Below, piece after piece: positions 297 to 31,520 of a stretch of DNA of 31,520 bases; the first letter of the stretch is position 1, and every line of letters starts with the position of its first letter. Origin of the DNA: a virus (lineage: Duplodnaviria > Heunggongvirae > Uroviricota > Caudoviricetes); the IMG/VR virus record IMGVR_UViG_2917870735_000002; one strand, 5' to 3'. The notes under the pieces are model-generated. The model was not told the origin of the DNA. It did no database searches and saw nothing but the letters and a program-made list of their open reading frames with translations. Position numbers and translations under genes: made by a program.

Positions 297-1337
297 CTAA
301 GCTGTCGCGACATTTTTGCGACATTTTAAGGGGTTAAGTCGCACGGCATCTTCAAGGTGGCTTGGGGCGAAATGGGCATAACGCATTGTCATAGTGATGT
401 CAGCGTGGCCGAGAATTTTTTGCAGAACCAGAATGTTTCCGCCGTTCATCATAAAGTGGCTGGCAAATGTATGGCGCAGTACATGGGTAAGCTGGCCGGA
501 GGGGAGTTCAATGCCTGCACGTTCCAGAGCAGAGCGGAAAGCGTTGTAGCAGGGCTTGGGGAACAGAGCGCCTTTTGTTTCAGGTAATTCGGACAGAAGT
601 TCATCATCAAGGGGAATTGTTCTGTTGCGCTTCCCTTTGGTTTTGACGAACGTGACTTTACCCCCGGCGATCTGGGAGCTTTTCAGCGTTGCCGCCTCAT
701 TCCACCTTGCGCCGGTAGCAAGGCAGATTTTGACAACTAATTCTAGGTACTTAACTTTACTTCGTTTGCATTCCAGTAAAAGCCGATCAATTTCTTCGGT
801 AGTGAGGAAAGCCATTTCGGTTTCATCAGTACGATACTGTCTGACGTTTTCTAGTGGGTTGGGTGCTGACCATTCACCAATCCGTTTCAGCTCGTTGAAC
901 ATAGCCAGGAAGTAAGCATGTTCAAGGTTCATAGTTTTCGGGGAAACCTTAGATACTCTGTTGGTACGGGCATAATGCCCATCCAGCCTTTTAGCGCGGT
1001 AGGCTGTGAACAACTGGGCATTAAATTCTGTGGCCAGCGGGAATCCCATGCATTCCGCCGCCCAGGTCATAGCATTTTTACGCTTTTCGCCATTGCTCAA
1101 AGCTACGCCGTGGCGTTCATACCACATGTTGATTAGGTCGCTTAGAGTACGGAGGTCTTTACCCTCGCCAAGCCAGGGGGAGTTCTCCACTTGCTGAAGC
1201 GTATAGTTCTCGTAGGCCAGGGCTTCGCCTTTTGTAGCGAATTTTTTACGAATACGCTTACCGGCTTTACCATTGCTTCGATCCACCGTGTAGAAATCGG
1301 CAATCCACTGGCCATTTGTTAATTTTCTTACAGACAT
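297..1337 (-). CDS. int: tyrosine integrase, P2 Int family
   Basis: 346 aa. N-terminal GKxGKRIRKKF arm-binding motif; catalytic region LATGARWNEA ... HVLRHTFASHF ... LGHADITMTMRYAHF (R, H-x-x-R, Y) as in P2 Int from memory. 3' end faces the left flank, as in P2 where int reads towards attP. Confidence 0.93.
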   Translation of the reverse strand: MSVRKLTNGQWIADFYTVDRSNGKAGKRIRKKFATKGEALAYENYTLQQVENSPWLGEGKDLRTLSDLINMWYERHGVALSNGEKRKNAMTWAAECMGFPLATEFNAQLFTAYRAKRLDGHYARTNRVSKVSPKTMNLEHAYFLAMFNELKRIGEWSAPNPLENVRQYRTDETEMAFLTTEEIDRLLLECKRSKVKYLELVVKICLATGARWNEAATLKSSQIAGGKVTFVKTKGKRNRTIPLDDELLSELPETKGALFPKPCYNAFRSALERAGIELPSGQLTHVLRHTFASHFMMNGGNILVLQKILGHADITMTMRYAHFAPSHLEDAVRLNPLKCRKNVATA

Positions 1338-17914: not shown

Positions 17915-18105
17915 CAAAGCGAGTCCATGAAATTGAAATGAATGGACTCGAACAATATTTAATTCTACGCCGTCATTATTTACCACATGGTCAGGATTCC
18001 GTTGATGATATCGCCGCCGCTATCTGGCTGGACAATCGTCACTGGGAATATACGGGAATAGCTGTGGCCAATGGTGTGGCAAAAGCATTTAAAGGCAGTG
18101 AATGA
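17657..18105 (+). CDS. tail assembly chaperone, predicted -1 programmed frameshift fusion product (E+E'-like)
   Basis: The -1 frame is open from 17902 to stop 18103-18105 and overlaps the short form only across A AAA AAC. Extension reads KKLTKRVHEIEMNGLEQYLILRRHYLPHGQDSVDDIAAAIWLDNRHWEYTGIAVANGVAKAFKGSE; its TGA overlaps the tape measure ATG (ATGA). Confidence 0.4.
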
Positions 18106-19292
18106 AACAATTAGATTTTACATTAAGCCTGATTGATAAATTATCCCGCCCGTTAAAACAGGTGCAAGGTAACGTCACCGGCTTTGCGGAAAAATCAAAA
18201 GCAGCCTTTATGCAGATCGGTGGTGGCGTTCTGGCGCTGGCAGGTATCGGGATGGAGATCAAAAGTGCTTTATCACCGGCAATTGAAATGTATGACGCGC
18301 TGAATGATGCCGCCGCAAAAGGTATTGATGATTCGGCACTTAAGACAGTTCAGCGTGATGCCCTGCGCTTCAGTACAACCTATGGTGCCAGTGCGGTGGA
18401 GTTTGTTAAATCCACGGAAAATATTAACGCTTCCATTGCCGGACTGACGGGTAATGAACTGCCGAAGGTGACGAAAGTCGCCAATACCCTGGCTTTTGCG
18501 CTCAAGTCCACAGCGGCGGACACGGCGGAATTTATGGGGCAGATGTTCGGTAACTTTTCCGCCGATGCCACCAGACTGGGCAAGGTTGAATTTGCCGAGC
18601 AGCTGGCAGGCAAGATGGTTTATATGCGCAAAACCTTTGGCACAGAAATGGCCACTATCAAGGATTTGATGGAAGGTGCGCGCGGCGTCGGGACTAACTA
18701 CGGCGTGGGACTGGATGAACAACTGGCCGTGCTGGGGCAACTTCAGCGGACGCTGGGAACAGAAGCCAGCAGCGCCTATGAAGGGTTTATGACCGGCGCG
18801 GTTGATGGCGCTAAAAAGCTGGGGCTGTCCTTTACTGACTCCACCGGCAAAATGTTGTCCATGCCTGAAATGCTGATCAAGTTGCAAGGCAAATATGGCA
18901 AAAGCCTTGAAGGGAATCTGAAAGCCCAGGCGGAACTGGATGCAGCCTTTGGTAACAGTTCTGCAGTGGTTAAACATCTTTACGGCAATGTCGCGTTACT
19001 TCAGCGGAACATCACCGAACTGGGCAGTACGGACGGCCTGAAGCGTACCCAGGAAATGGCACAAAAAATGGTTAAGCCGTGGGATCGCTTTGTACAAATC
19101 CTGAAAGCCATTCAGACCGTGATCGGACTGACGCTGATCCCGGTGCTGTATCCGGTTCTGAATCGCCTGGCTGATATGGGGCAGACCTTTGCTCGTTGGA
19201 TGCAGTTATTTCCTAACATTGCCCGTGTGATTGGTTATGCGTCGGTGGCACTACTGAGCTTTGCCGCCGTGGGTGCGGTTGCAATATCGTGA
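18102..19292 (+). CDS. tail tape measure protein, N-terminal ORF
   Basis: 396 aa, Ala/Gly-rich helical with hydrophobic C-terminal segment; directly follows chaperone. Confidence 0.7.
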   Translation: MKQLDFTLSLIDKLSRPLKQVQGNVTGFAEKSKAAFMQIGGGVLALAGIGMEIKSALSPAIEMYDALNDAAAKGIDDSALKTVQRDALRFSTTYGASAVEFVKSTENINASIAGLTGNELPKVTKVANTLAFALKSTAADTAEFMGQMFGNFSADATRLGKVEFAEQLAGKMVYMRKTFGTEMATIKDLMEGARGVGTNYGVGLDEQLAVLGQLQRTLGTEASSAYEGFMTGAVDGAKKLGLSFTDSTGKMLSMPEMLIKLQGKYGKSLEGNLKAQAELDAAFGNSSAVVKHLYGNVALLQRNITELGSTDGLKRTQEMAQKMVKPWDRFVQILKAIQTVIGLTLIPVLYPVLNRLADMGQTFARWMQLFPNIARVIGYASVALLSFAAVGAVAIS

Positions 19293-20068
19293 TGGGGGTA
19301 TCCAGATTCATCATGATGGGATTACGTGGGATCTGGGGGGCGTTAACGGCGGTTACGAAAATCTACACGGCGACTGTCTGGCTGGCGCAAATGGCGGTAA
19401 TCGCCTGGAATACCACGCTGAAGTTTTTACGCGGCGCGTTACTGGCGGTACGCATGGCCGCAATGATGACCGGAATTGGTATCAATCTGATGAGCTGGCC
19501 AATCCTGCTTGTGATTGGTGCCATTGCGCTGCTTGTTGCTGGTTGTTATCTGCTGGTTAAGCACTGGAACACGATAAAAGCATCGGTGATGAATACCGAA
19601 GCCTTCCAGGCATGTGCTGCCGTAGTGAAATGGCTAGCGGGGATCTTTGTTTTAGCCTGGCAATATGTCAGTGATGGATGGAACAGTTTTATTTCTATGC
19701 TGACAGGATTTTCACCATCTGAGGCATTAAATGGAATGGCCACCGGTATTATGTCACTGTTTGATATTGTCTGGAACTCAATCAAAGAGGGATTTCTTAA
19801 GTCGTGGAACTGGATTGTTCAGAAACTGAATGAAATTCCCGGCGTGGATATTTCTCTGGCGAGTGAAACCTTACAGCCGTTAACTGGTAATACGCTGTCT
19901 ACGGGGGGCGATTTAAAAGGTGTGGATAATGGCGGTATCAGTAAAACAATCAGCAGCAACACAACATCCGTAATCGATAACAGCCGGAAAATTGGTGAAG
20001 TGCATTTCCATACCAAAGAAGCATTATCTCCACTCCAGCTTATGGAATGGCAGGAGCTTGGTGCATGA
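19292..20068 (+). CDS. tape measure protein C-terminal portion, or separate hydrophobic tail protein
   Basis: 258 aa from ATG 19292 (track gives GTG 19289); -1 frame relative to preceding ORF, joined at TGATG; multiple hydrophobic segments typical of tape-measure central regions. Confidence 0.55.
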   Translation: MGVSRFIMMGLRGIWGALTAVTKIYTATVWLAQMAVIAWNTTLKFLRGALLAVRMAAMMTGIGINLMSWPILLVIGAIALLVAGCYLLVKHWNTIKASVMNTEAFQACAAVVKWLAGIFVLAWQYVSDGWNSFISMLTGFSPSEALNGMATGIMSLFDIVWNSIKEGFLKSWNWIVQKLNEIPGVDISLASETLQPLTGNTLSTGGDLKGVDNGGISKTISSNTTSVIDNSRKIGEVHFHTKEALSPLQLMEWQELGA

Positions 20069-22165: not shown

Positions 22166-23740
22166 ATGTCACAGACAGCCATCACACTGGCGTTTGAAAA
22201 CTGGAAAGCACAGCAGGGCGCAACAGGTGAACCGGTACTACTGGACGAATTTGTTTTTGCCAGTGTGCCGGATTTAAACGCGGATATCCCTGTTGATCGC
22301 AATGAAGGGTTGCCCCCGACAGCACAGATTGTTCACCGGCAAGCTGTTACCCGTACCGGTGTGGTGGATGAAAACAGGGTGGTCTATTCCGTAGTGCTGG
22401 GCGCAGATGTGGGGGATTTCAGTTTTAACTGGATTGGTCTGCTCAATAAGGCCAGCGGTACGCTGGCAATGATTGTTCATGCACCAGCACAGCAGAAACT
22501 GAAAACAAAAGAAGGGCAACAGGGGAACGTGCTGACCCGCTCGTTTCTGATGGAGTACAACGGTGCACAAACAGAAACTGGGATTAATACGCCCGCTGAA
22601 ACCTGGCAGATTGATTTTACTGCACGTTTGGCCGGAATTGATGAGCGCCAGCGTCTGGAAAATACAGATATTTATGGCGCGGCGGCGTTTTTTGGTAACG
22701 GGTATCTGGTAGCCAAAACCGGCAATCAGTTTTATGTCACGAAAGGCACGGGGTATGTGGCTGGACTGCGTGTGTCACTGGATGCGAATCAGGATATTAC
22801 AGTGACGACAAAGTCGGTAAAAGTCTGGCTGGATGTGTGCTGGACAGGGATTCTGAGCAGTGTCTGGAGTGTACAGAGTAAAGTCACGGTTGTAGAAAAT
22901 CTGACTGATTATGTTCAGAACGGTATTCAGCATTTTGTATTTGCGGTGGCCAGCATTGATGTGGATGGCAACATCACGGATTTAAGGCCAAAAGGCAGTC
23001 TGAGCGATCAACAGGCCAGCAGCGATTTTTTGCGTAAGGATGCAAACCTTGCCGATATCAATGACAAGGCGGAAGCCAGAAAAAATCTTGGGCTGGGTGA
23101 GCTGGCGGTCTTAAGCATTAGCGATGTTGTGCCGGTTGGAGTACCACTTCCTTGGCCGACTGATATTCCACCAGCGGGTCACGCAATCATGCAGGGGCAG
23201 GTGTTTGATCCAGTGGCTTACCAGCGACTGGCTATTGCATACCCATCGGGTGTTCTTCCTGATATGCGCCGCCAGACGATCAAAGGAAAACCTGATGGCC
23301 GTGCAGTTTTGTCCTATGAAGATGATGGCAATAAATCCCATGCCCACACCGCTAGTGCATTCAGTACCGATCTGGGGACGAAGTCAACATCATCCTTTGA
23401 CTACGGCACTAGAGCTGTGAGCACATTTGATTACGGAACCAAAACAACCGATACAACTGGTGCACATACTCATACATATGTTAAGGGGCAGGCCACTCAA
23501 AACGGAGATATCAATAGAGGTCAGGGCGGCGATAACGTAACAACTGGTAATACGGATTTGGCTGGCAACCATGCTCATATTGTAGGAATTGGCGCACATA
23601 GCCATTCTGTAGGAATTGGAGCTCACTCTCATACCGTAGCAATAGGCGCACACAGTCACACCATTACTGTCGCCGCGTCGGGCAATGAAGAAACGACCGT
23701 TAAAAACATCGTATTTAACTACATAGTGAGACTCGCATAA
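22166..23740 (+). CDS. tail fibre protein with C-terminal His-box repeat receptor-binding region
   Basis: 524 aa; ATG 22166 with AAGGAGA upstream; C-terminal G-A-H-S-H repeats (VGIGAHSHS / VGIGAHSHT / VAIGAHSHT) and FDYGT-x repeats typical of T4 gp37 / Mu S / P2 H-type fibres. Confidence 0.85.
23582..23662 (+). repeat. three tandem 27-nt repeats encoding V(G/A)IGAHSH(S/T) inside tail fibre gene
   Basis: gtaggaattggcgcacatagccattct / gtaggaattggagctcactctcatacc / gtagcaataggcgcacacagtcacacc read directly from sequence. Confidence 0.85.
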
Positions 23741-24327
23741 TGACTTTTAAAATGAGTGAAACGGATCAAACAGTTACCGTTTATAACCTGCGTTCTGACA
23801 CGAATGAATTTATTGGGTTGGGTGACGCTTTTATACCTGCGCATACTGGACTGCCAGCCAACTGCACCACAATAAAACCACCGGTAATAAAAGCGGGGTT
23901 TGTGGCAATTTTTGATTCAGAGAAGCAAAAATGGGTTTCTCGTGAGGATCATCGTGGTGAGGTGTTGTTTGATACAGAAAACGGTAATGAGCTGGTGATC
24001 ACCGAACCAGGCGCTTATCCGGAAAGGACAACCACGTTAGCACCAGCTAATGCCTGGCAAAAATGGAATGGTAAGGCGTGGGTGGATGATGCGGAGGCCA
24101 TGCGAATTGCATTAGTCAGCGAGGCAGATGCCGAAAAGAAAAGACTGTTTAAACAGGCCAGTGACGCCATTGCCACACTGCAGGATGCCATTGATTTAGA
24201 TATGGCGACTGAAGAAGAAGAGTTGTCTCTTACTGCATGGAAAAAATACCGTGTTTTACTGAACCGTATTCAACCGGAAGATGTGCCAGAAATTGTGTGG
24301 CCGGAGATACCTGGAAATGTGGCGTGA
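23740..24327 (+). CDS. tail fibre assembly protein (Tfa, P2 gpG-like chaperone)
   Basis: 195 aa; ATG overlaps fibre stop (TAATG); N-terminus [26 protein letters not shown] and overall composition typical of enterobacterial Tfa proteins. Confidence 0.8.
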   Translation: MTFKMSETDQTVTVYNLRSDTNEFIGLGDAFIPAHTGLPANCTTIKPPVIKAGFVAIFDSEKQKWVSREDHRGEVLFDTENGNELVITEPGAYPERTTTLAPANAWQKWNGKAWVDDAEAMRIALVSEADAEKKRLFKQASDAIATLQDAIDLDMATEEEELSLTAWKKYRVLLNRIQPEDVPEIVWPEIPGNVA

Positions 24328-25042
24328 AGCACGTCTGGCCTTCACGGATTCTGTTGCTGCGCTGAACTGTTCGATAGTCCCTGCGCATCCGTGGATTTAT
24401 GGGCTGGGACAGCAGACAGCGAACGGGGCATATCTCAGCCCGGTTAATGCCGTTCGCTATCTTGCTGAACGCCTGGCCGGAACTGGGGGGAATGCGGACG
24501 TGGTGATTATGATGGTCACTGGACAGACGCAGGAAAACTTTATGACCAGCCTGAATAACCTGGCCGGGATTTTCCCTGCCCCGGCATTCACGCAGGTCAA
24601 ACGGCTGGTGCAATCCGCCGCAGCGCTGGCTATTGAAAAGATGCAGATCCCGGCGAAAGCTGCCGCAGCGTTACCTGCGTCCATTCCACTGTCTGTACCA
24701 ACCACCAGGGCAGCTTTATCTGCTGCGGCAATCAGCCAGGCACAAAAGGCGGCGGGTGCCGGGTTTGATATCGAAGGGCTGAAAAAACAGCTGGGCGAGT
24801 TCACGCAGCTGCGTGACCAGCTTATCAGTGATGTGGCCAGCGGCCTGAATGATTTACAAGGTAAAAGTGCCAGAGTATGGGTTTTTACTGCCAGCGGAGA
24901 CACCGGCACCTCGTTACTGGAATTGGTGAAGGACATTCCGCAGCAGTCTGCCGTTTACACCGCAGCCATGATGCTGGTTGGCGATAATCTTGATGGAATA
25001 AAGGGAATGATTCATGACTTCGATCCCGACACTGGCGCTTAA
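24317..25042 (+). CDS. hypothetical tail-associated protein (241 aa, Ala-rich)
   Basis: ATG 24317 with GGAGA 9 nt upstream (alternative ATG 24281); overlaps Tfa 3' end; phage-like GC composition. Confidence 0.45.
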   Translation: MWREARLAFTDSVAALNCSIVPAHPWIYGLGQQTANGAYLSPVNAVRYLAERLAGTGGNADVVIMMVTGQTQENFMTSLNNLAGIFPAPAFTQVKRLVQSAAALAIEKMQIPAKAAAALPASIPLSVPTTRAALSAAAISQAQKAAGAGFDIEGLKKQLGEFTQLRDQLISDVASGLNDLQGKSARVWVFTASGDTGTSLLELVKDIPQQSAVYTAAMMLVGDNLDGIKGMIHDFDPDTGA

Positions 25043-25559
25043 TGGCGAGGCCATCCAGCTGAAAAACATGCGGGTGACTGTTTCACAGCAATTTCAGGAT
25101 AAAGATCAGTCCGGCCAGACCAGTGCCACAACAAAATCAGAGCAGGGAGCAAAGGGAAAGGAACTGCGGATCAGCGGTGAAATACCTTTTAAACAGCCTG
25201 AAGTACTAAAGCGTATTTTTGAGCTGGCCAGTACTACCGATGCCAGTGGTAATCGTCAGAAATATCGCGTGGTGCATGAAGTTGCCCGTGCTGTTAACTT
25301 TCGTGAAGCAACGTTCAGCGGAACGGTGGATGCACCCCAGCAGGACGGGAAGATGTCCTGGTTGGTGACATTCACACTGGCGGAACATATCAGCGTGCAG
25401 GAAAAGCAAGAGGCCAGGGCAACAGGTAAGACGACCGCAAAAAAACAGACTGCCGGTAGTGCGGGACAGTCCGGTGGCCAGTCTGCCGGAGAAGATGAAG
25501 AAAAACTGACGTGGTTTGAACGCAAGGTACTGAAGCCCGTCAATGATGCTTTGGGTTAA
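25014..25559 (+). CDS. putative tail protein (gpU position, 181 aa)
   Basis: ATG 25014 with AAGGGA upstream; precedes large distal tail gene; positional assignment only. Confidence 0.4.
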   Translation: MTSIPTLALNGEAIQLKNMRVTVSQQFQDKDQSGQTSATTKSEQGAKGKELRISGEIPFKQPEVLKRIFELASTTDASGNRQKYRVVHEVARAVNFREATFSGTVDAPQQDGKMSWLVTFTLAEHISVQEKQEARATGKTTAKKQTAGSAGQSGGQSAGEDEEKLTWFERKVLKPVNDALG

Positions 25560-27262
25560 TGATGAAACCAGTAAAACGCCTATACCTTTCAACGGATGAA
25601 GTTCACCTGGTGGATGCCAGCCTGGTACTGGAGCTGAACAGCTGCGGCCGGGGCTTCATCACCGCAGAGACAACAACCGATTACACCGGAAAACTGGTGA
25701 GGCTGGATGTGGGGTATACCGAACTGCTTTTGCGCTGGTTTACGGGGTATGTGGAGCGATCGCAGCCCGCTGAAAACGGTTTTCAGCGTCTGTTCATTCG
25801 TGAGTTGGCAGGTGTGTTTGAAAGGATGTGGCCATGTTCGTTTCAACACCCGACTTTGCGTGAAATTGCGGTCTGGTTGGAAGAAAATAGCGGGATCACG
25901 GTCAGTGTGCCTGACGCACAGTACAGCGATACCCCTATCCCACATTTTACCCATAACGGTACTGGTTATCAGTTGCTGAACAATCTGGGAAGGGCGTTCA
26001 GTATCCAGGATTACATCTGGTACCAGTTTCCTGATGGTTCGCTTTACGTCGGTGGCGCAGAAAAGTCATTGTTTGCCGGTCGTCCCGTAGAAATCCCATC
26101 AGAATTCAGCCAGGGGGCTGCTGGCGGTAACTCTGTGACATTACCAGTGATCCAGACTATGCGGCCAGGGGTGGAGATGAACGGTGAACGCGTGACTAAG
26201 GTTCATCTGACGAATGACACGATGGCGATCACATGGATGCCGAGAAACCGCGTAACGGGTAAACCTTTGCAGAAAACACCGGCACAAAGGCAGATTGAAA
26301 GCCATTACCCTGAACTGGCATCTGGGCTTCATTTGCCAAAGATGGCCAGAGTCGTGGCGTATTCAGAGCCGGTAAAAAGCGGTAACTTTGCCGATCCCTT
26401 CCGACCACGTTACGCCGTGGACGTGCAGCTTCTTGACGCAGACGGAAACCCGGACAATCAGACACCTGTTTATTCAGCGGTGCCGTTGCCAGTACCGATG
26501 GCTGGGAATGATTCAGGTATGTTTCAGTTTCCGCCAGAAGGGACGCTGGTTGAGGTTGCATTCACGGGAGGCAGACCTGATAAACCCTTTATCAGGCAGA
26601 CGCTGCCGGATGGTACCAGCCTGCCGGACGTTAAACCCGGTGAGCAATTGCAGCAGCAGCGGGAAGAAGTATCCCAGAGGGTGACTCAGGCTGGAGACTG
26701 GGTAAGGCAGACCGATCAGACCATCAGTGAAACATCGATGGTGCGAACGGTAAAAGCCGATACGGAACAGCGCGAACTGGTCAGCCGTGAAACCGCGGTG
26801 AAAGCTACGGATAAAACTACGGTACTGGGAACCGCCATATTGCTGGCTGGAGCCATCCAGCAGGTCAGCGCCGGTGATTATAGCCAGGCGGTGAAAGGTA
26901 ACAGGCTGTCCAGTATTGAAGGAAACGAAGAAACGGACATAACAGGACTGCAGTCCACTAAAGTGGGGGGGGCTGTAGTCGTGGAGGTTGGCGAAAGCCT
27001 GACAGAGAAGATTGCAGCACTGCGTAAATCAGTAGCCACTGGAGGTCAGCAGGTCATGGGGGCAACTGTCCATATTGGCAGTGAGAGTATCAACGCCCTG
27101 ACCATGATGCTGGACACCATTGATTTACTGGAAGAGCTGGCGCAGCTATGTGCGAGCCATTCTCATCCCTCCGTTGGGATGCCAACCAATGCCGCCGCGT
27201 TCACCCAGACAGGGACGAAAGCCGGGCAGACCCGGGAAAAATACCAGGGGATTATTGCCTAA
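25559..27262 (+). CDS. putative baseplate hub / late control D-like tail protein (567 aa)
   Basis: TAATG-coupled to upstream gene; last gene of late operon as gpD is in P2; no firm motif recognised. Confidence 0.4.
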   Translation: MMKPVKRLYLSTDEVHLVDASLVLELNSCGRGFITAETTTDYTGKLVRLDVGYTELLLRWFTGYVERSQPAENGFQRLFIRELAGVFERMWPCSFQHPTLREIAVWLEENSGITVSVPDAQYSDTPIPHFTHNGTGYQLLNNLGRAFSIQDYIWYQFPDGSLYVGGAEKSLFAGRPVEIPSEFSQGAAGGNSVTLPVIQTMRPGVEMNGERVTKVHLTNDTMAITWMPRNRVTGKPLQKTPAQRQIESHYPELASGLHLPKMARVVAYSEPVKSGNFADPFRPRYAVDVQLLDADGNPDNQTPVYSAVPLPVPMAGNDSGMFQFPPEGTLVEVAFTGGRPDKPFIRQTLPDGTSLPDVKPGEQLQQQREEVSQRVTQAGDWVRQTDQTISETSMVRTVKADTEQRELVSRETAVKATDKTTVLGTAILLAGAIQQVSAGDYSQAVKGNRLSSIEGNEETDITGLQSTKVGGAVVVEVGESLTEKIAALRKSVATGGQQVMGATVHIGSESINALTMMLDTIDLLEELAQLCASHSHPSVGMPTNAAAFTQTGTKAGQTREKYQGIIA

Positions 27263-27316: not shown

Positions 27317-27913
27317 TCAGTTGTTGTGTAGTTCAAGATAGTTAGAGGTGGAGTGCGTATCAAGCGGTAGTAGTTGTGCGGCTCTGCGGGTTATAAAGAC
27401 ACTATTGGCAGGAATGTTTCGGTTAACGAATGACATAGCACCAATTGTCACATTATCACCAATGGTCAGATCATCACCGATGATGCATGAATTTGCGCCA
27501 ATCTCGACATTGTCTCCGATCCTGATGGCTTTGATTCCTTCAACTGTTTTTAATCCAATCGTTGTGTTTTGTCGGATACGAACATTTTTTCCAATCACAG
27601 CCTGGGGACAAATGACTATTCCAACGAAGTGATAAATTTTGAATTTTTCCCCGATCTGTGCCCCCAATCCAATATCAGTATTGTATTTTGAAACAAGTCT
27701 CCGGTGGATTCTTCGTGCCCACTTAATACTTGATTTCCCTCCCTGACAGTAAAGGCAATTCGCTATCCTCCACCAACACATGAATCTGTGTCCGGGTTGT
27801 CTCCAGCAACGTAGTATGATTCTCCTCCAGGAGAAATTTTTACTGCTGTGCAGTATGTCCGCGCACAACAACTTCTTCATATCCTCATAATGCGACTTTT
27901 TGTTGTTGCTCAT
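27317..27913 (-). CDS. hexapeptide-repeat acetyltransferase, serine acetyltransferase (CysE)/WcaB-like
   Basis: 198 aa; ATG 27913 with AGGGAGA upstream. Helical N-terminus (HRFMCWWRIANCLY) then left-handed beta-helix repeats (DIGLGAQIGEKFKIYHFVGIVICPQAVIGKNVRIRQNTTIG ... IGDNVEIGANSCIIGDDLTIGDNVTIGAMSFV) paralleling the CysE core pattern. AT-rich; convergent with the last tail gene. Confidence 0.75.
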   Translation of the reverse strand: MSNNKKSHYEDMKKLLCADILHSSKNFSWRRIILRCWRQPGHRFMCWWRIANCLYCQGGKSSIKWARRIHRRLVSKYNTDIGLGAQIGEKFKIYHFVGIVICPQAVIGKNVRIRQNTTIGLKTVEGIKAIRIGDNVEIGANSCIIGDDLTIGDNVTIGAMSFVNRNIPANSVFITRRAAQLLPLDTHSTSNYLELHNN

Positions 27914-28566: not shown

Positions 28567-28935
28567 TCAATTTTCATCAATATGACTTTCGTTTTCATCT
28601 TTGTACCATGTGGGCAAATTATCTGTAATTTGTTCATTAATTACATTTTGAGTGTCAGCAGGTAGCAGTTTAAAAATCTCAAAAATAAAGTTTGATATTT
28701 CAACTTTTACATCAGCAGTAGGGCCATAAAAATCATCTTTAACATAATCCCATTTATGCTTTATTAAAGTTGATTCTGGATATTGTATTTTGACTAAGCC
28801 AATTTGTTTGTAAATCCAATTTATGGCGCTATCTGCTCCAGAGAAGGCCTCATTACCGCTATTAATAAATGGCCCAACATCATAGACACGTTTAGTGTTA
28901 TTATCTAAAACTCTTACATAACAATTGGTTGCCAT
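28567..28935 (-). CDS. hypothetical small acidic protein (122 aa)
   Basis: ATG 28935 with AAGGTGG upstream; 15 bp after the 104-aa gene on the same strand; AT-rich; acidic C-terminus. Confidence 0.6.
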   Translation of the reverse strand: MATNCYVRVLDNNTKRVYDVGPFINSGNEAFSGADSAINWIYKQIGLVKIQYPESTLIKHKWDYVKDDFYGPTADVKVEISNFIFEIFKLLPADTQNVINEQITDNLPTWYKDENESHIDEN

Positions 28936-28950
28936 ACCCCACCTTTTTTA

Positions 28951-29265
28951 TTAGCCAATGTACCGTACACGATTGCCGTTATATAATGGCCATTCGTTTA
29001 GCAAATCTCTAAGTAGTCTTTCCATGTGAGTTGCATCTTCTGCTGCATTTTTTCCAACATAGTCATTTCCACGTTGGAAAGTTTCATAACGCATTGCCAT
29101 TGATGGGGTGTTTTCTTCAAAGCCAATTGGAGACAAATCATTTATTTGTGTAACTGCTACATCGCCAGATTTAGATACCCAGAGAATATGATGACCTGCG
29201 TTATCGTCGCAAGCAGAGATTAGTTGTGAGAGTTGGCTTACTGTAGGGTTATTGTTTAAGTTCAT
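28951..29265 (-). CDS. hypothetical small protein (104 aa)
   Basis: ATG 29265 with AAGAGG 8 nt upstream; first gene of a two-gene cassette. Confidence 0.6.
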   Translation of the reverse strand: MNLNNNPTVSQLSQLISACDDNAGHHILWVSKSGDVAVTQINDLSPIGFEENTPSMAMRYETFQRGNDYVGKNAAEDATHMERLLRDLLNEWPLYNGNRVRYIG

Positions 29266-29474: not shown

Positions 29475-30101
29475 TTACAGCACTGTTTCTGCGGAACGGG
29501 ACGCTTCTTTTGTCGCATTGCCAGTGATAAAAGGCTGCTTTTCCTGATATTCCGACTGCGGTAGTTTGGATGTATACACTGGCGTGATCTTGTTTTTATA
29601 AACGGTGTCACTGGGGATGTTCTGAAGCACCAGTGAATGCGCACCAATGGTGACATTGTTTCCGATTGTAATCTTGCCGCCCAGAATGGACGAGTTACAG
29701 CCAATATCAACATGATCACCAATGATTATCATTGCGTCGACACTGTCGGTGCGTAACCCTATGGTGATGCCTTGCTTCAGGTCGGCGAAATCACCAATCA
29801 CGCAATTGTCAGTAATGACAATACCGTTCAAATGAGCAATGTTTAACCCCTTGCCGATTTTGCACGACAGAGAAATATCAACGCTGTGCCGGTACTTGAG
29901 GCGGTTTTCAATTCTGCGGGCAATGCGCTTTTTGAACTTACTATTCTGGCCATAGAGCCATGAAGCAATACGCCACCAGAACAGGAAGTGCTTCTTCTGG
30001 TTGCGTCGGGTACGAAGTAACGCTTTACGCCATGAAAAGGCTTTGTCATGGCCAATGACTTCAAGGCGGATACATTCTTTACGATGGTCGTAGGAAGTCA
30101 T
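29475..30101 (-). CDS. hexapeptide-repeat acetyltransferase, CysE/WcaB-like (divergent paralog of 27317..27913)
   Basis: 208 aa; shares N-terminal motif (FSWR..., WWRIASWLY) and beta-helix repeats (IGDFADLKQGITIGL ... IGDHVDIGCNSSILGGKITIGNNVTIGAHSLV) with the other acetyltransferase. Confidence 0.75.
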   Translation of the reverse strand: MTSYDHRKECIRLEVIGHDKAFSWRKALLRTRRNQKKHFLFWWRIASWLYGQNSKFKKRIARRIENRLKYRHSVDISLSCKIGKGLNIAHLNGIVITDNCVIGDFADLKQGITIGLRTDSVDAMIIIGDHVDIGCNSSILGGKITIGNNVTIGAHSLVLQNIPSDTVYKNKITPVYTSKLPQSEYQEKQPFITGNATKEASRSAETVL

Positions 30102-30284: not shown

Positions 30285-31520
30285 TTAGAGGTGAAACCAA
30301 GAATAAGTAGCTTCATCTTTTTCAAAAATATACTGTATATGTAATTCAACTAACCAGAGACTAACTATTTTAAGCGTAAGTTTATTACATAAATGAATAT
30401 ACCTTGTATAACTTATTTCTCTTTCAGCTCCTGTACCCCCACTTTTGTATCGAACAGATTCTCCATCATGCCATATTGATGCGTGATGCGAGCCATTCCT
30501 AATTGTAGATTCTAAATCATCTTCACAAAAGGCGGTAAATAATTCATTGTCTTTAAATGGATTTATCTTTCCTTCTTTATTAACATCTTTTATATATTTG
30601 TTTAGTGTCATTGTTTTGAATTGATCAAAACTCCTTCCATTAATAATGTTATTAATGCAGGCTAATATTGTCATGTTAGATGTTAAAGTTTCATAAGCAT
30701 CACCATAGTAATTACGGATTTTATCAAAGTTTTTTGAACTGATGATTTTGGTGTCAATTTCATCGTTGTTTATTCTTGCGTAATATATTAGTTGGCCAAA
30801 ATGATCTCGACGAGACATGAAGTCTGATATGATGTTTATATATCTTTGTTGATTTTCAACCTGTAGGTTTTGTTTATAAAATTTATAGAAATCGTCCAGT
30901 AATCCATTTTTTTTAAGCTCGTCAATTTCTAGCTTTATAGGTTCGGCAATGTCATGAACACGAGGGTAGAAAAGCCAATCTAAAAACTCATAACTAATTG
31001 AAGTGAAAGAGTACATTGAATCCTTTTTGTAAAGAGGTAATTCTTCATTTCGTGACTGCATGTATAATTTTGCTGTACGCTGTGCTTTTTCTATTTCCCC
31101 ATTGTTAATAAGTTTTGCAATGGATTTTAAATAAGCCCATTTTGACGGAGCGTTAGGAATATCAAATTGGTGTGAAATGCTGATAATTCTTTGTCCAGGT
31201 GGCATCCTCATATGCTTATGGAGCATGCTCGTTAACTCAAGGGATGGGAAAGTTGTTGGTGAATGAATTTCATCTTTGTCGAAAGCACAAGCTGGGTGAA
31301 AATTAACTACTTTATGTTCTAAGCTATATTCAACAATAATACAATTTTCTTCAACTTGAATGTAAGCGCTGGGGGGAATAGCTTTTACAGCAAAAACAAT
31401 TGGCATATTACATTCAAAACAATCCATGAAATGCTTTTGATATTTATCAATTCCGACCCCAACCCTTACACGATAAATAGCGTTACATGACTGACATTGG
31501 ATGCTATTACCGATTACCAT
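30285..31520 (-). CDS. hypothetical Cys-rich protein (at least 411 aa); zinc-ribbon-like N-terminus; 5' end at window edge
   Basis: ORF runs to the last base; first ATG is at 31520-31518 so the true start may lie outside. N-terminus has CQSC-x22-CFEC spacing; very AT-rich; no recognisable catalytic motif. Confidence 0.6.
   Translation of the reverse strand: MVIGNSIQCQSCNAIYRVRVGVGIDKYQKHFMDCFECNMPIVFAVKAIPPSAYIQVEENCIIVEYSLEHKVVNFHPACAFDKDEIHSPTTFPSLELTSMLHKHMRMPPGQRIISISHQFDIPNAPSKWAYLKSIAKLINNGEIEKAQRTAKLYMQSRNEELPLYKKDSMYSFTSISYEFLDWLFYPRVHDIAEPIKLEIDELKKNGLLDDFYKFYKQNLQVENQQRYINIISDFMSRRDHFGQLIYYARINNDEIDTKIISSKNFDKIRNYYGDAYETLTSNMTILACINNIINGRSFDQFKTMTLNKYIKDVNKEGKINPFKDNELFTAFCEDDLESTIRNGSHHASIWHDGESVRYKSGGTGAEREISYTRYIHLCNKLTLKIVSLWLVELHIQYIFEKDEATYSWFHL

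What the first reader, a model, noticed from the sequence alone, without database searches (positions are those of the whole stretch)
22166..24327. Tail fibre with tandem His-box repeats in the receptor-binding C-terminus, followed by a single Tfa and no invertible segment
The fibre C-terminus has three perfect-register 27-nt tandem repeats (GAHSH motifs), which are prone to slippage and recombination and common in receptor-binding tips. Unlike Mu or P1 there is no inverted alternative fibre segment and no invertase nearby, so host range is fixed. The repeat block is a likely point for host-range variation between relatives.
Basis: seen in the sequence. Interest (0 to 1): 0.35.

Follow-up and report, generated by a model that had tools for sequence, protein, structure and literature searches.

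The report
T4 gp37-type fibre tip, ordinary prophage
The repeats are real, but they are the well-known histidine (HxH) metal-binding core of a T4 gp37-type tail-fibre tip; host-range variation sits in a short loop just upstream of them, so this is an ordinary prophage tail fibre.

Summary
ORF 22166-23740 is a 524-aa tail fibre. It is followed, with a 1-nt overlap, by one lambda-type Tfa chaperone gene (23740-24327). Three in-register 27-nt units (23582-23662) encode [27 protein letters not shown]. The window holds no invertase and no inverted second fibre copy.

Fibre residues 317-524 are homologous to the solved T4 gp37 receptor-binding tip (PDB 2XGF, E=1.3e-66). By that homology, the HxH units are the returning strand of the metal-binding needle, a structural scaffold and not the receptor contact.

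The units are only 70-74% identical in DNA, so they are poor slippage substrates. Copy number is the same in all nine close relatives aligned and in every full-length member of the protein's 90% cluster. The last about 60 residues are nearly invariant.

Variation is concentrated in a roughly 30-aa loop (nt about 23474-23569) bounded by two HxH motifs. This loop matches the experimentally mapped T4 receptor-binding tip and has at least five alleles among ten sequences.

Across the wider family the returning strand has 3-6 HxH units. This number always changes together with the 10-aa DxGTK or HxH units on the outgoing strand.

The exact protein is already in NCBI (Escherichia marmotae). Known biology, low interest.

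The parts
22166..23740 (+). Tail fibre gene (524 aa plus stop)
   Evidence: ORF. Pfam PF12571 and PF07484. 85-88% aa identity to the annotated 'tail fiber protein' of Escherichia phages ESSI2_ev015/ev040/ev239/ev129. The exact sequence is in NCBI as a phage tail protein of Escherichia marmotae.
22172..22642 (+). N-terminal tail-collar-fibre domain (aa 3-159). I infer it is the baseplate-attachment end.
   Evidence: PF12571, E=8.8e-31. Conserved at 90-100% nt identity in relatives of the same phage type. Also retained in L005, whose distal half is unrelated.
23114..23737 (+). T4 gp37-type receptor-binding tip module (aa 317-524): collar, needle and head
   Evidence: phmmer against PDB: 2XGF chain A (T4 long tail fibre protein gp37), E=1.3e-66, query 317-524 against chain 24-242.
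23138..23281 (+). Collar domain core (aa 325-372)
   Evidence: PF07484, E=3.3e-07. Aligns to the T4 gp37 D10 collar, residues 811-881.
23339..23347 (+). HxH motif 1 (H392-A-H394), outgoing strand
   Evidence: Aligns to T4 H883/H885. Invariant in 10 of 10 sequences.
23360..23449 (+). Three 10-aa DxGTK units (STDLGTK / FDYGTR / FDYGTK) on the outgoing strand
   Evidence: Sequence. Mean entropy 0.47 bits. Their number tracks the number of returning HxH units across the family.
23465..23473 (+). HxH motif 2 (H434-T-H436); left edge of the variable cassette
   Evidence: Aligns to T4 H929/H931. DNA identity to relatives carrying other alleles collapses immediately after it.
23474..23569 (+). Head loop (aa 437-468); hypervariable, and the inferred receptor-binding tip
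   Evidence: At least 5 alleles in 10 sequences. 25-40% nt identity to L003/L004/L006-L009 but 83-93% to L001/L002. Mean entropy over aa 438-465 is 2.66 bits, against 0.3-1.0 bits in the flanking segments. Positionally equivalent to T4 residues 932-965, which hold the residues mapped for LPS and OmpC binding.
23555..23662 (+). Four returning-strand 9-aa HxH units (DLAGNHAHI plus the three below)
   Evidence: Align to T4 H966/968, H980/982, H989/991 and H998/1000. The histidines are invariant in the relatives.
23582..23662 (+).
   Evidence: TRF score 79, with 0 of 100 shuffles reaching it. 19-20 of 27 nt shared pairwise. Entropy 0.68 bits.
23663..23737 (+). Conserved C-terminal segment ([25 protein letters not shown]), which by homology returns to the collar
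   Evidence: Mean entropy 0.32 bits, the lowest of all segments. Aligns to the T4 C-terminus; T4 residues 1010-1026 are part of the D10 collar.
23740..24327 (+). Tail fibre assembly chaperone (Tfa, 195 aa)
   Evidence: PF02413, E=8.4e-35. Start codon overlaps the fibre stop codon. The N-terminal part is conserved wherever the fibre has this tip type, including the P2-like L010 (60% overall identity). It differs in L005, whose fibre tip is unrelated. The C-terminal helix region is shared by all, including Mu U.

Best explanation
This is the tail fibre and chaperone pair of an HP1/P2-like (Peduoviridae, Quadragintavirus-like) prophage, probably of Escherichia marmotae. The fibre is a mosaic. Its N-terminal tail-collar-fibre domain is specific to this phage type, and it is fused to a distal module homologous to the receptor-binding tip of T4 gp37.

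By homology to the solved T4 structure, three chains form a collar. They then run outward along a thin needle (HxH 1, three DxGTK units, HxH 2) and turn in a small head domain of about 32 residues. They run back along the needle through four 9-residue HxH units and end in the collar.

Each HxH motif from the three chains supplies six histidines that would coordinate one buried metal ion (Fe2+ in T4). The window has six such motifs; T4 has seven.

The three 27-nt repeats are therefore the structural spine of the needle and are kept by purifying selection on the protein. Receptor specificity lies in the head loop between HxH 2 and HxH 3. That loop is exchanged as a cassette between relatives, and the conserved His-box DNA on each side marks its edges and probably serves as the homology for recombination.

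The downstream Tfa folds and trimerises the fibre. Its N-terminal domain matches this tip type and its conserved C-terminal helices mediate trimerisation.

Shown here: the homology, the motif positions, the variability profile, the cassette edges, and the absence of an inversion system. Inferred: metal binding, the trimer geometry, the receptor-binding role of the loop, and the recombination mechanism.
For: - PDB 2XGF matches aa 317-524 at E=1.3e-66, and six of T4's seven HxH motifs align.
- In T4 the needle holds seven irons bound by HxH histidines, and alanine scanning places the receptor contacts at residues 929-953 in the tip (PMC6957217). HxH-Fe sites are a general fibre and spike feature (PMC6116203).
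- The histidines and the unit number are invariant in nine relatives and in a P2-like fibre that is only 38% identical overall.
- Entropy is 2.66 bits in the head loop against 0.68 in the three units and 0.32 at the C-terminus, across 88 distinct tips.
- DNA identity to relatives carrying other alleles falls to 25-40% only between about 23474 and 23560. It recovers exactly at the GCTGGCAACCATGC (AGNHA) box.
- The Tfa N-terminal domain varies with tip type while its C-terminal region is conserved. This matches the modular Tfa model summarised in PMC9608196.
- The prophage context is complete: integrase, CI, CII, gpA, portal, terminase, P2-type capsid, HP1-type tail genes and baseplate. The region is 92.6% identical in DNA to Escherichia phage ESSI2_ev015.
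Against: - Nothing here measures metal content, trimer formation or receptor binding; these rest on homology with T4.
- The window has a DxGTK unit where T4 has its second HxH, so the metal count (six) is a prediction.
- The receptor is unknown.
- The tape-measure gene carries a 1-nt deletion relative to its relatives. If that is real, this copy of the prophage may not build tails at all.
Confidence: 0.9

Rival explanations
1. The 27-nt repeats are a slippage- or recombination-prone contingency tract, and their copy number changes to alter host range among related prophages.
For: - The repeat is real and in register.
- Across distant family members the returning strand has 3, 4, 5 or 6 HxH units: 36, 114, 13 and 1 of 165 distinct tips.
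- His boxes lie exactly at the mosaic edges.
Against: - The units are only 19-20 of 27 nt identical and use different Ser codons, so there is little substrate for slippage and no sign of homogenisation.
- No copy-number change occurs in nine close relatives, in the 90% cluster (nine of ten members are 524 aa, the tenth is a 472-aa fragment), or among the listed fully covering E. coli hits (spans of 2162 or 2165 nt).
- Where the number does differ, the outgoing strand changes by a matching 10-aa unit. Span pairs are 32/18, 42/27, 52/36 and 62/45, with Spearman 0.96. A single slippage event would therefore put the two strands out of step.
- The repeat residues are among the least variable in the protein.
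Confidence: 0.05
2. The HxH repeats themselves take part in host recognition. One version is that fibre-bound iron mimics a siderophore-iron complex (the 'Ferrojan/Trojan horse' idea). In that case the repeat block would be a functional ligand and not only a scaffold.
For: The hypothesis exists in the literature for HxH-bearing fibres (PMC11705849). The motifs are strongly conserved.
Against: - In T4 the irons are described as metal-binding motifs critical for fibre folding and structure. In pyocin fibres the corresponding iron is buried in the shaft.
- T4 receptor contacts map to tip-loop residues.
- Here the specificity-like variation lies in the loop, not in the HxH units.
Confidence: 0.03
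3. The fibre belongs to a decaying, tail-defective prophage. Its features would then be inherited relics with no present function in this genome.
For: The tape-measure gene is split into 396-aa and 259-aa ORFs by one missing C at about 19281, relative to three relatives that have an intact 1968-nt gene.
Against: - All other structural genes scanned, including the fibre and the Tfa, are intact, and the element is 92.6% identical to sequenced phage genomes.
- A single-base indel may be a sequencing error.
- This rival concerns activity in this one genome, not what the fibre is.
Confidence: 0.15

Closest known systems
T4 gp37 long-tail-fibre receptor-binding tip (PDB 2XGF; domains D10 collar and D11 needle/head)
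   Same: - aa 317-524 align end to end at E=1.3e-66.
- The collar, the HxH motifs at equivalent positions, the VGIGAHxHTVAIGxHxHTITV returning strand and the [11 protein letters not shown] C-terminus are all shared.
- The head loop is of similar size (about 32 aa, against about 34 aa between the flanking HxH motifs in T4).
   Different: - There are six HxH motifs, not seven. A third DxGTK unit replaces T4's H915/H917, and the spacers near the head are 4-5 residues shorter on both strands.
- The tip is carried on a 524-aa temperate-phage fibre with a P2-type N-terminus, not on the 1026-aa T4 protein.
- The neighbouring chaperone is a lambda-type Tfa, not T4 gp38 and gp57A (the T4 chaperones are named).
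Tail fibres of Escherichia phages ESSI2_ev015, ev040, ev129 (Quadragintavirus) and ev239 (Evevirus), and related E. coli prophages
   Same: - Same gene order: baseplate J, gpI-like, fibre, Tfa, three baseplate genes.
- 85-88% aa identity, and the same number and spacing of HxH and DxGTK units.
   Different: - The head-loop allele is shared only with ev015 and ev040. Relatives ev239, ev129 and the E. coli prophages carry other alleles.
- In the window, the stretch around the collar (nt 23066-23275) is unusually divergent from all of them, at 63-81%.
P2 gpH/gpG-type and lambda Stf/Tfa-type fibre and chaperone pairs
   Same: - A P2-like prophage (L010: V, W, J, I, fibre, Tfa, sheath, tube) carries the same tip, and its Tfa is 60% identical.
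- Some database hits are named 'side tail fiber protein'.
- That T4 gp37, lambda Stf and P2 H share C-terminal homology, and that lambda Tfa can substitute for T4 gp38, is from my own recollection of the literature of the 1980s and 1990s. I did not check it here.
   Different: The N-terminal and shaft regions are unrelated (38% overall identity with L010, concentrated in the tip).
Mu S/U-S'/U' G segment with Gin, and P1 C segment with Cin (invertible host-range switches)
   Same: A fibre gene followed by a Caudo_TAP-type chaperone. Mu U aligns to the window Tfa C-terminus at E=5.6e-09.
   Different: There is no invertase, no second inverted fibre-tip and chaperone set, and no flanking crossover repeats. 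Most P2/HP1-like phages also lack such a switch (my own knowledge), so the absence is not unusual.

Membership tests
T4 gp37-type receptor-binding tip (2XGF fold family) | Significant sequence homology across collar, needle, head and the C-terminal strand | tested here: met
   phmmer E=1.3e-66, query 317-524 against chain 24-242.
T4 gp37-type receptor-binding tip (2XGF fold family) | HxH motifs at the positions of the iron-binding histidines | tested here: met
   Six of T4's seven motifs align: H883/885, H929/931, H966/968, H980/982, H989/991 and H998/1000. T4's H915/917 is replaced by a DxGTK unit. The histidines are invariant in the relatives.
T4 gp37-type receptor-binding tip (2XGF fold family) | Homotrimer with buried Fe2+ ions, each coordinated octahedrally by six histidines | not testable with these tools
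   Needs purified protein, a structure or a metal analysis. Inferred from homology.
T4 gp37-type receptor-binding tip (2XGF fold family) | Receptor specificity carried by the head domain between the outgoing and returning strands | tested here: inconclusive
   The equivalent loop is the hypervariable segment (2.66 bits; at least 5 alleles), and the T4 contacts map there. No binding data exist for this protein.
Phage tail-collar fibre (P2 gpH-like N-terminus, PF12571) | N-terminal Phage_tail_fib domain, with the gene placed after the baseplate J and gpI-like genes | tested here: met
   PF12571 E=8.8e-31. Upstream genes match PF04865 (Baseplate_J) and PF09684 (Tail_P2_I), the latter just below its curated cutoff (20.1 against 20.6 bits).
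Lambda-type tail fibre assembly chaperone (Caudo_TAP, PF02413) | Profile match; encoded immediately downstream of its fibre; variable N-domain matched to the tip type plus a conserved C-terminal helical region | tested here: met
   PF02413 E=8.4e-35. 1-nt overlap with the fibre stop codon. Domain pattern in the alignment; the model is described in PMC9608196.
Invertible fibre-switch systems (Mu G/Gin, P1 C/Cin) | Serine invertase gene next to the fibre locus | tested here: not met
   tblastn with Mu Gin: best E=0.34. No resolvase-type domain in the ORFs scanned.
Invertible fibre-switch systems (Mu G/Gin, P1 C/Cin) | A second, inverted fibre C-terminus and chaperone set, flanked by inverted crossover sites | tested here: not met
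   The fibre and Tfa queries hit only themselves. The inverted repeats found are 22 nt or shorter and 73-88% complementary.
Slippage-prone contingency repeat | Near-identical tandem DNA units | tested here: not met
   19-20 of 27 nt identical between units.
Slippage-prone contingency repeat | Copy-number polymorphism among close relatives | tested here: not met
   Same unit number in nine relatives. All full-length members of the 90% cluster are 524 aa. The listed full-length E. coli hits span 2162 or 2165 nt.

The most novel reading that the evidence does not exclude
The gp37-type needle may be built from paired modules. Each 9-aa HxH unit on the returning strand is matched by one 10-aa DxGTK (or HxH) unit on the outgoing strand. 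Evolution would then lengthen or shorten the needle only by concerted gain or loss of both. The observed classes have 3, 4, 5 or 6 returning units, with outgoing/returning spans of 32/18, 42/27, 46/32, 52/36, 56/41 and 62/45 residues. If so, needle length could be a tunable and adaptive trait, for example to reach a receptor through O-antigen or capsule layers of different thickness. I do not know whether this pairing rule has been stated explicitly in the literature, and I could not read the 2XGF paper.
Probability: 0.25. Interest if true: 0.35.

Novelty: already known. Interest (0 to 1): 0.13.

Why it matters
It matters little as a discovery. The exact protein is already in NCBI, close phage relatives are sequenced and annotated, and the tip fold has a crystal structure and detailed mutagenesis in T4.

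The practical value is in annotation and engineering. To predict or change host range in this fibre family, the segment to compare or swap is the roughly 30-aa loop between HxH 2 and HxH 3 (nt 23474-23569 here), not the HxH repeat block. Any change to the number of HxH units should be matched by a change in the DxGTK units on the outgoing strand.

Tried and rejected
- Invertible segment. I searched with Mu Gin, S, U, S' and U' proteins, and by self-comparison on the opposite strand. Nothing was found.
- Slippage hot spot. Rejected on unit identity and the lack of polymorphism.
- 'One layer shorter than T4'. I first thought the window's needle had one layer fewer than T4's. Counting units shows both have five outgoing and four returning units. 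The window only replaces one HxH with a DxGTK unit and has shorter spacers.
- Motif counting by regular expression. A simple pattern for DxGTK units produced apparent exceptions to the pairing rule. Inspection showed these were degenerate units such as FNHGTK, DLGTV and FDYGMK. A motif-free measure of span lengths gave clean classes, with 163 of 165 tips falling in them.
- Papers. The Bartual et al. 2010 paper could not be read by DOI or by PMC id. A search for 'His box' found no open-access paper using the term. The attribution of that term to Tétart and Krisch is from memory; only the 1998 title was confirmed through a reference list.
- Structure prediction. Not run. A monomer model would add nothing to a 1e-66 match to a solved structure, and the tool returns no coordinates with which to test strand pairing.
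Full report

Yes. The + strand carries a 524-aa ORF at 22166-23740 and a 195-aa ORF at 23740-24327. The second ORF's ATG overlaps the first ORF's TAA (TAATG).

Pfam identifies the first as a tail fibre: Phage_tail_fib PF12571 at aa 3-159 (E=8.8e-31) and Collar PF07484 at aa 325-372. It identifies the second as a lambda-type tail fibre assembly protein: Caudo_TAP PF02413, E=8.4e-35.

Tandem Repeats Finder reports a period-27 array with 3.1 copies, no indels and score 79 at 23574-23658. None of 100 dinucleotide shuffles of the whole window reached that score; the highest was 62.

In codon register the three units are 23582-23608, 23609-23635 and 23636-23662. They encode [18 protein letters not shown] and [10 protein letters not shown] degenerate fourth unit (DLAGNHAHI) lies just upstream.

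The units are in perfect register but are not perfect copies. They share only 19-20 of 27 nt, and the same serine is encoded by AGC, TCT and AGT in different units.

**2. Context**

The window is a complete HP1/P2-like prophage. It holds a tyrosine integrase (297-1337, minus strand), CI and CII regulators, gpA replication protein, portal and large terminase, P2-type scaffold, capsid and small terminase, and HP1-type tail genes. These are followed by the tape measure, DUF2590, baseplate J, a gpI-like gene, the fibre, the Tfa, a conserved hypothetical gene, HP1_ORF34 and a spike/hub protein. Two acetyltransferase genes then lie on the opposite strand.

The fibre region is 92.6% identical in DNA to Escherichia phage ESSI2_ev015 (Peduoviridae, Quadragintavirus). 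The exact fibre protein is in NCBI as a phage tail protein of Escherichia marmotae and unnamed Escherichia clades.

**3. No inversion system**

Mu Gin finds nothing in six-frame translation of the window (best E=0.34). The fibre and the Tfa match only themselves. Mu S' finds nothing and Mu U' only a chance-level match (E=0.82); Mu U matches only the window's own Tfa. Inverted repeats around the locus are short and imperfect. From my own knowledge it is also the normal state for P2/HP1-like phages.

**4. What the repeats are**

A search of PDB sequences with the fibre gives one strong hit, the T4 long tail fibre protein gp37 tip (2XGF). The E-value is 1.3e-66 and the match covers aa 317-524 end to end.

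In T4 this fragment comprises the D10 collar (residues 811-881 plus 1010-1026) and the D11 needle and head (882-1009). Seven iron atoms lie along the needle, each bound by HxH histidines from the three chains. The receptor contacts were mapped by alanine scanning to tip residues around 929-953 (PMC6957217). HxH-iron sites with octahedral six-histidine coordination are a general feature of phage fibres and spikes and are thought to aid folding and stiffness (PMC6116203).

The alignment, converted to T4 numbering (chain index plus 784, which reproduces H929, H931 and G964), gives this mapping:

| Window motif | T4 equivalent |
|---|---|
| H392/394 | H883/885 |
| H434/436 | H929/931 |
| H469/471 | H966/968 |
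| H478/480 | H980/982 |
| H487/489 | H989/991 |
| H496/498 | H998/1000 |

T4's remaining motif (H915/917) is replaced in the window by a third DxGTK unit. This is the returning strand of the needle stem, which is scaffold and not receptor surface.

**5. Where relatives differ**

I aligned the fibre with nine others: four ESSI2 phages, four E. coli prophages of the same type, and one P2-like prophage that is only 38% identical overall.

- All histidines, the number of units and the last 60 residues or so are conserved.
- The segment between GAHTHT and AGNHAH differs completely, with at least five alleles among the ten sequences.

A sliding DNA comparison shows 25-40% identity to L003/L004/L006-L009 only between about 23471 and 23577. 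Identity to ev015 and ev040, which share the window's allele, is 83-93% there.

At base resolution the alleles diverge immediately after the HxH 2 codons. They re-converge at the GCTGGCAACCATGC box that encodes AGNHA. The His boxes therefore frame a swappable cassette. This fits the published idea that conserved motifs in T-even adhesin genes act as recombination sites (Tétart et al. 1998, seen only as a citation).

Over 88 distinct tips from the large protein database, mean column entropy by segment is as follows:

| Segment | Mean entropy (bits) |
|---|---|
| Head loop | 2.66 |
| Three repeat units | 0.68 |
| DxGTK units | 0.47 |
| C-terminus | 0.32 |

A second mode of variation is replacement of the whole distal half. 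A Salmonella phage contig (L005) keeps the first 290 aa or so, then has an unrelated distal part of about 450 aa. Its Tfa has a different N-terminal domain.

**6. Copy number**

Among close relatives there is no variation:
- nine relatives have the same unit number;
- nine of the ten members of the protein's 90% cluster are 524 aa, and the tenth is a 472-aa fragment;
- every fully covering E. coli hit that was listed spans 2162 or 2165 nt, and the 3-nt difference lies in the head loop.

Deeper in the family the number does vary. Among 165 distinct tips, the returning strand has 3, 4, 5 or 6 HxH units in 36, 114, 13 and 1 cases. The variation is strictly coupled. The span from the first to the last outgoing HxH, paired with the span of the returning HxH block, falls into discrete pairs: 32/18, 42/27, 46/32, 52/36, 56/41 and 62/45 residues. 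163 of 165 tips fall in these classes (Spearman 0.96).

Inspection shows that each extra 9-aa returning unit is accompanied by an extra 10-aa DxGTK unit, or an extra HxH, on the outgoing strand. This is what an antiparallel needle requires. It means a single slippage event in the 27-nt tract would put the strands out of step.

These counts are not phylogenetically independent. They come from the best 120 and 150 hits of two searches.

**7. The chaperone**

The Tfa N-terminal 110 aa or so are conserved wherever the fibre carries this tip type, including the P2-like L010 (60% overall identity). They differ in L005 and in Mu U. The C-terminal helical region is shared by all. This matches the modular Tfa model, in which a variable N-domain binds the fibre and a conserved C-domain trimerises (PMC9608196).

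The Tfa's 90% cluster is spread over Escherichia, Citrobacter, Salmonella and Kosakonia. The fibre's cluster is confined to E. marmotae and related Escherichia.

**8. Verdict**

The feature is real but ordinary. It is a T4 gp37-type, HxH metal-binding fibre tip on a P2/HP1-like prophage fibre, with its cognate Tfa. It lies in the head loop framed by the His boxes, not in the repeat block.

The only mildly new point is the strict pairing of outgoing and returning repeat units across the family. It follows directly from the known fold. Novelty: already known. Interest: low.

Noticed in passing
window 18102-20068 (indel at about 19281): The tape-measure gene is split into a 396-aa ORF and a 259-aa ORF, 1967 nt in total. 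Three relatives have one intact 1968-nt gene, and the alignment shows a single missing C (GGTTG-CAATATC against GGTGGCCAATATC). This is either a real frameshift, making the prophage tail-defective, or a sequencing error.
   Followed up: partly
window 23360-23449: Three 10-aa DxGTK units (STDLGTK / FDYGTR / FDYGTK) lie on the outgoing strand of the needle. Across the family their number tracks the number of returning HxH units.
   Followed up: yes
window 23066-23275: The DNA just before and within the collar domain is only 63-81% identical to every relative compared, while the flanks are 86-93% identical. This looks like a separate mosaic patch specific to this prophage.
   Followed up: no
L005 1393-4301 (Salmonella phage S.Kent 1-2-1 contig): The fibre N-terminus (about 290 aa) and the surrounding baseplate genes are the same, but the distal part (about 450 aa) is unrelated. 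Its Tfa has a different N-terminal domain. This is whole-module replacement, with the junction near LRPKG..EQQAS.
   Followed up: partly
window 27317-27913 (-) and 29475-30101 (-): Two hexapeptide-repeat acetyltransferase genes lie on the opposite strand just past the tail module. Relatives carry serine acetyltransferase or acyltransferase genes in the same place. They are likely lysogenic-conversion cargo, possibly modifying the O-antigen. The 18-nt tandem repeat at 27439-27482 lies inside the first gene.
   Followed up: no
window 24281/24317-25042, 25014-25559, 25559-27262: Three more baseplate genes follow the fibre and Tfa: a conserved hypothetical gene with no Pfam match, HP1_ORF34, and a 567-aa spike/hub with weak Phage_base_V and Gp5_C matches. 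This order is conserved in all Quadragintavirus-like relatives.
   Followed up: partly
window 30285-31520 (-), 28567-29265 (-): A 411-aa ORF with no Pfam match starts at the right edge of the window. Two small ORFs of 104 and 122 aa also have no match. None was characterised.
   Followed up: no
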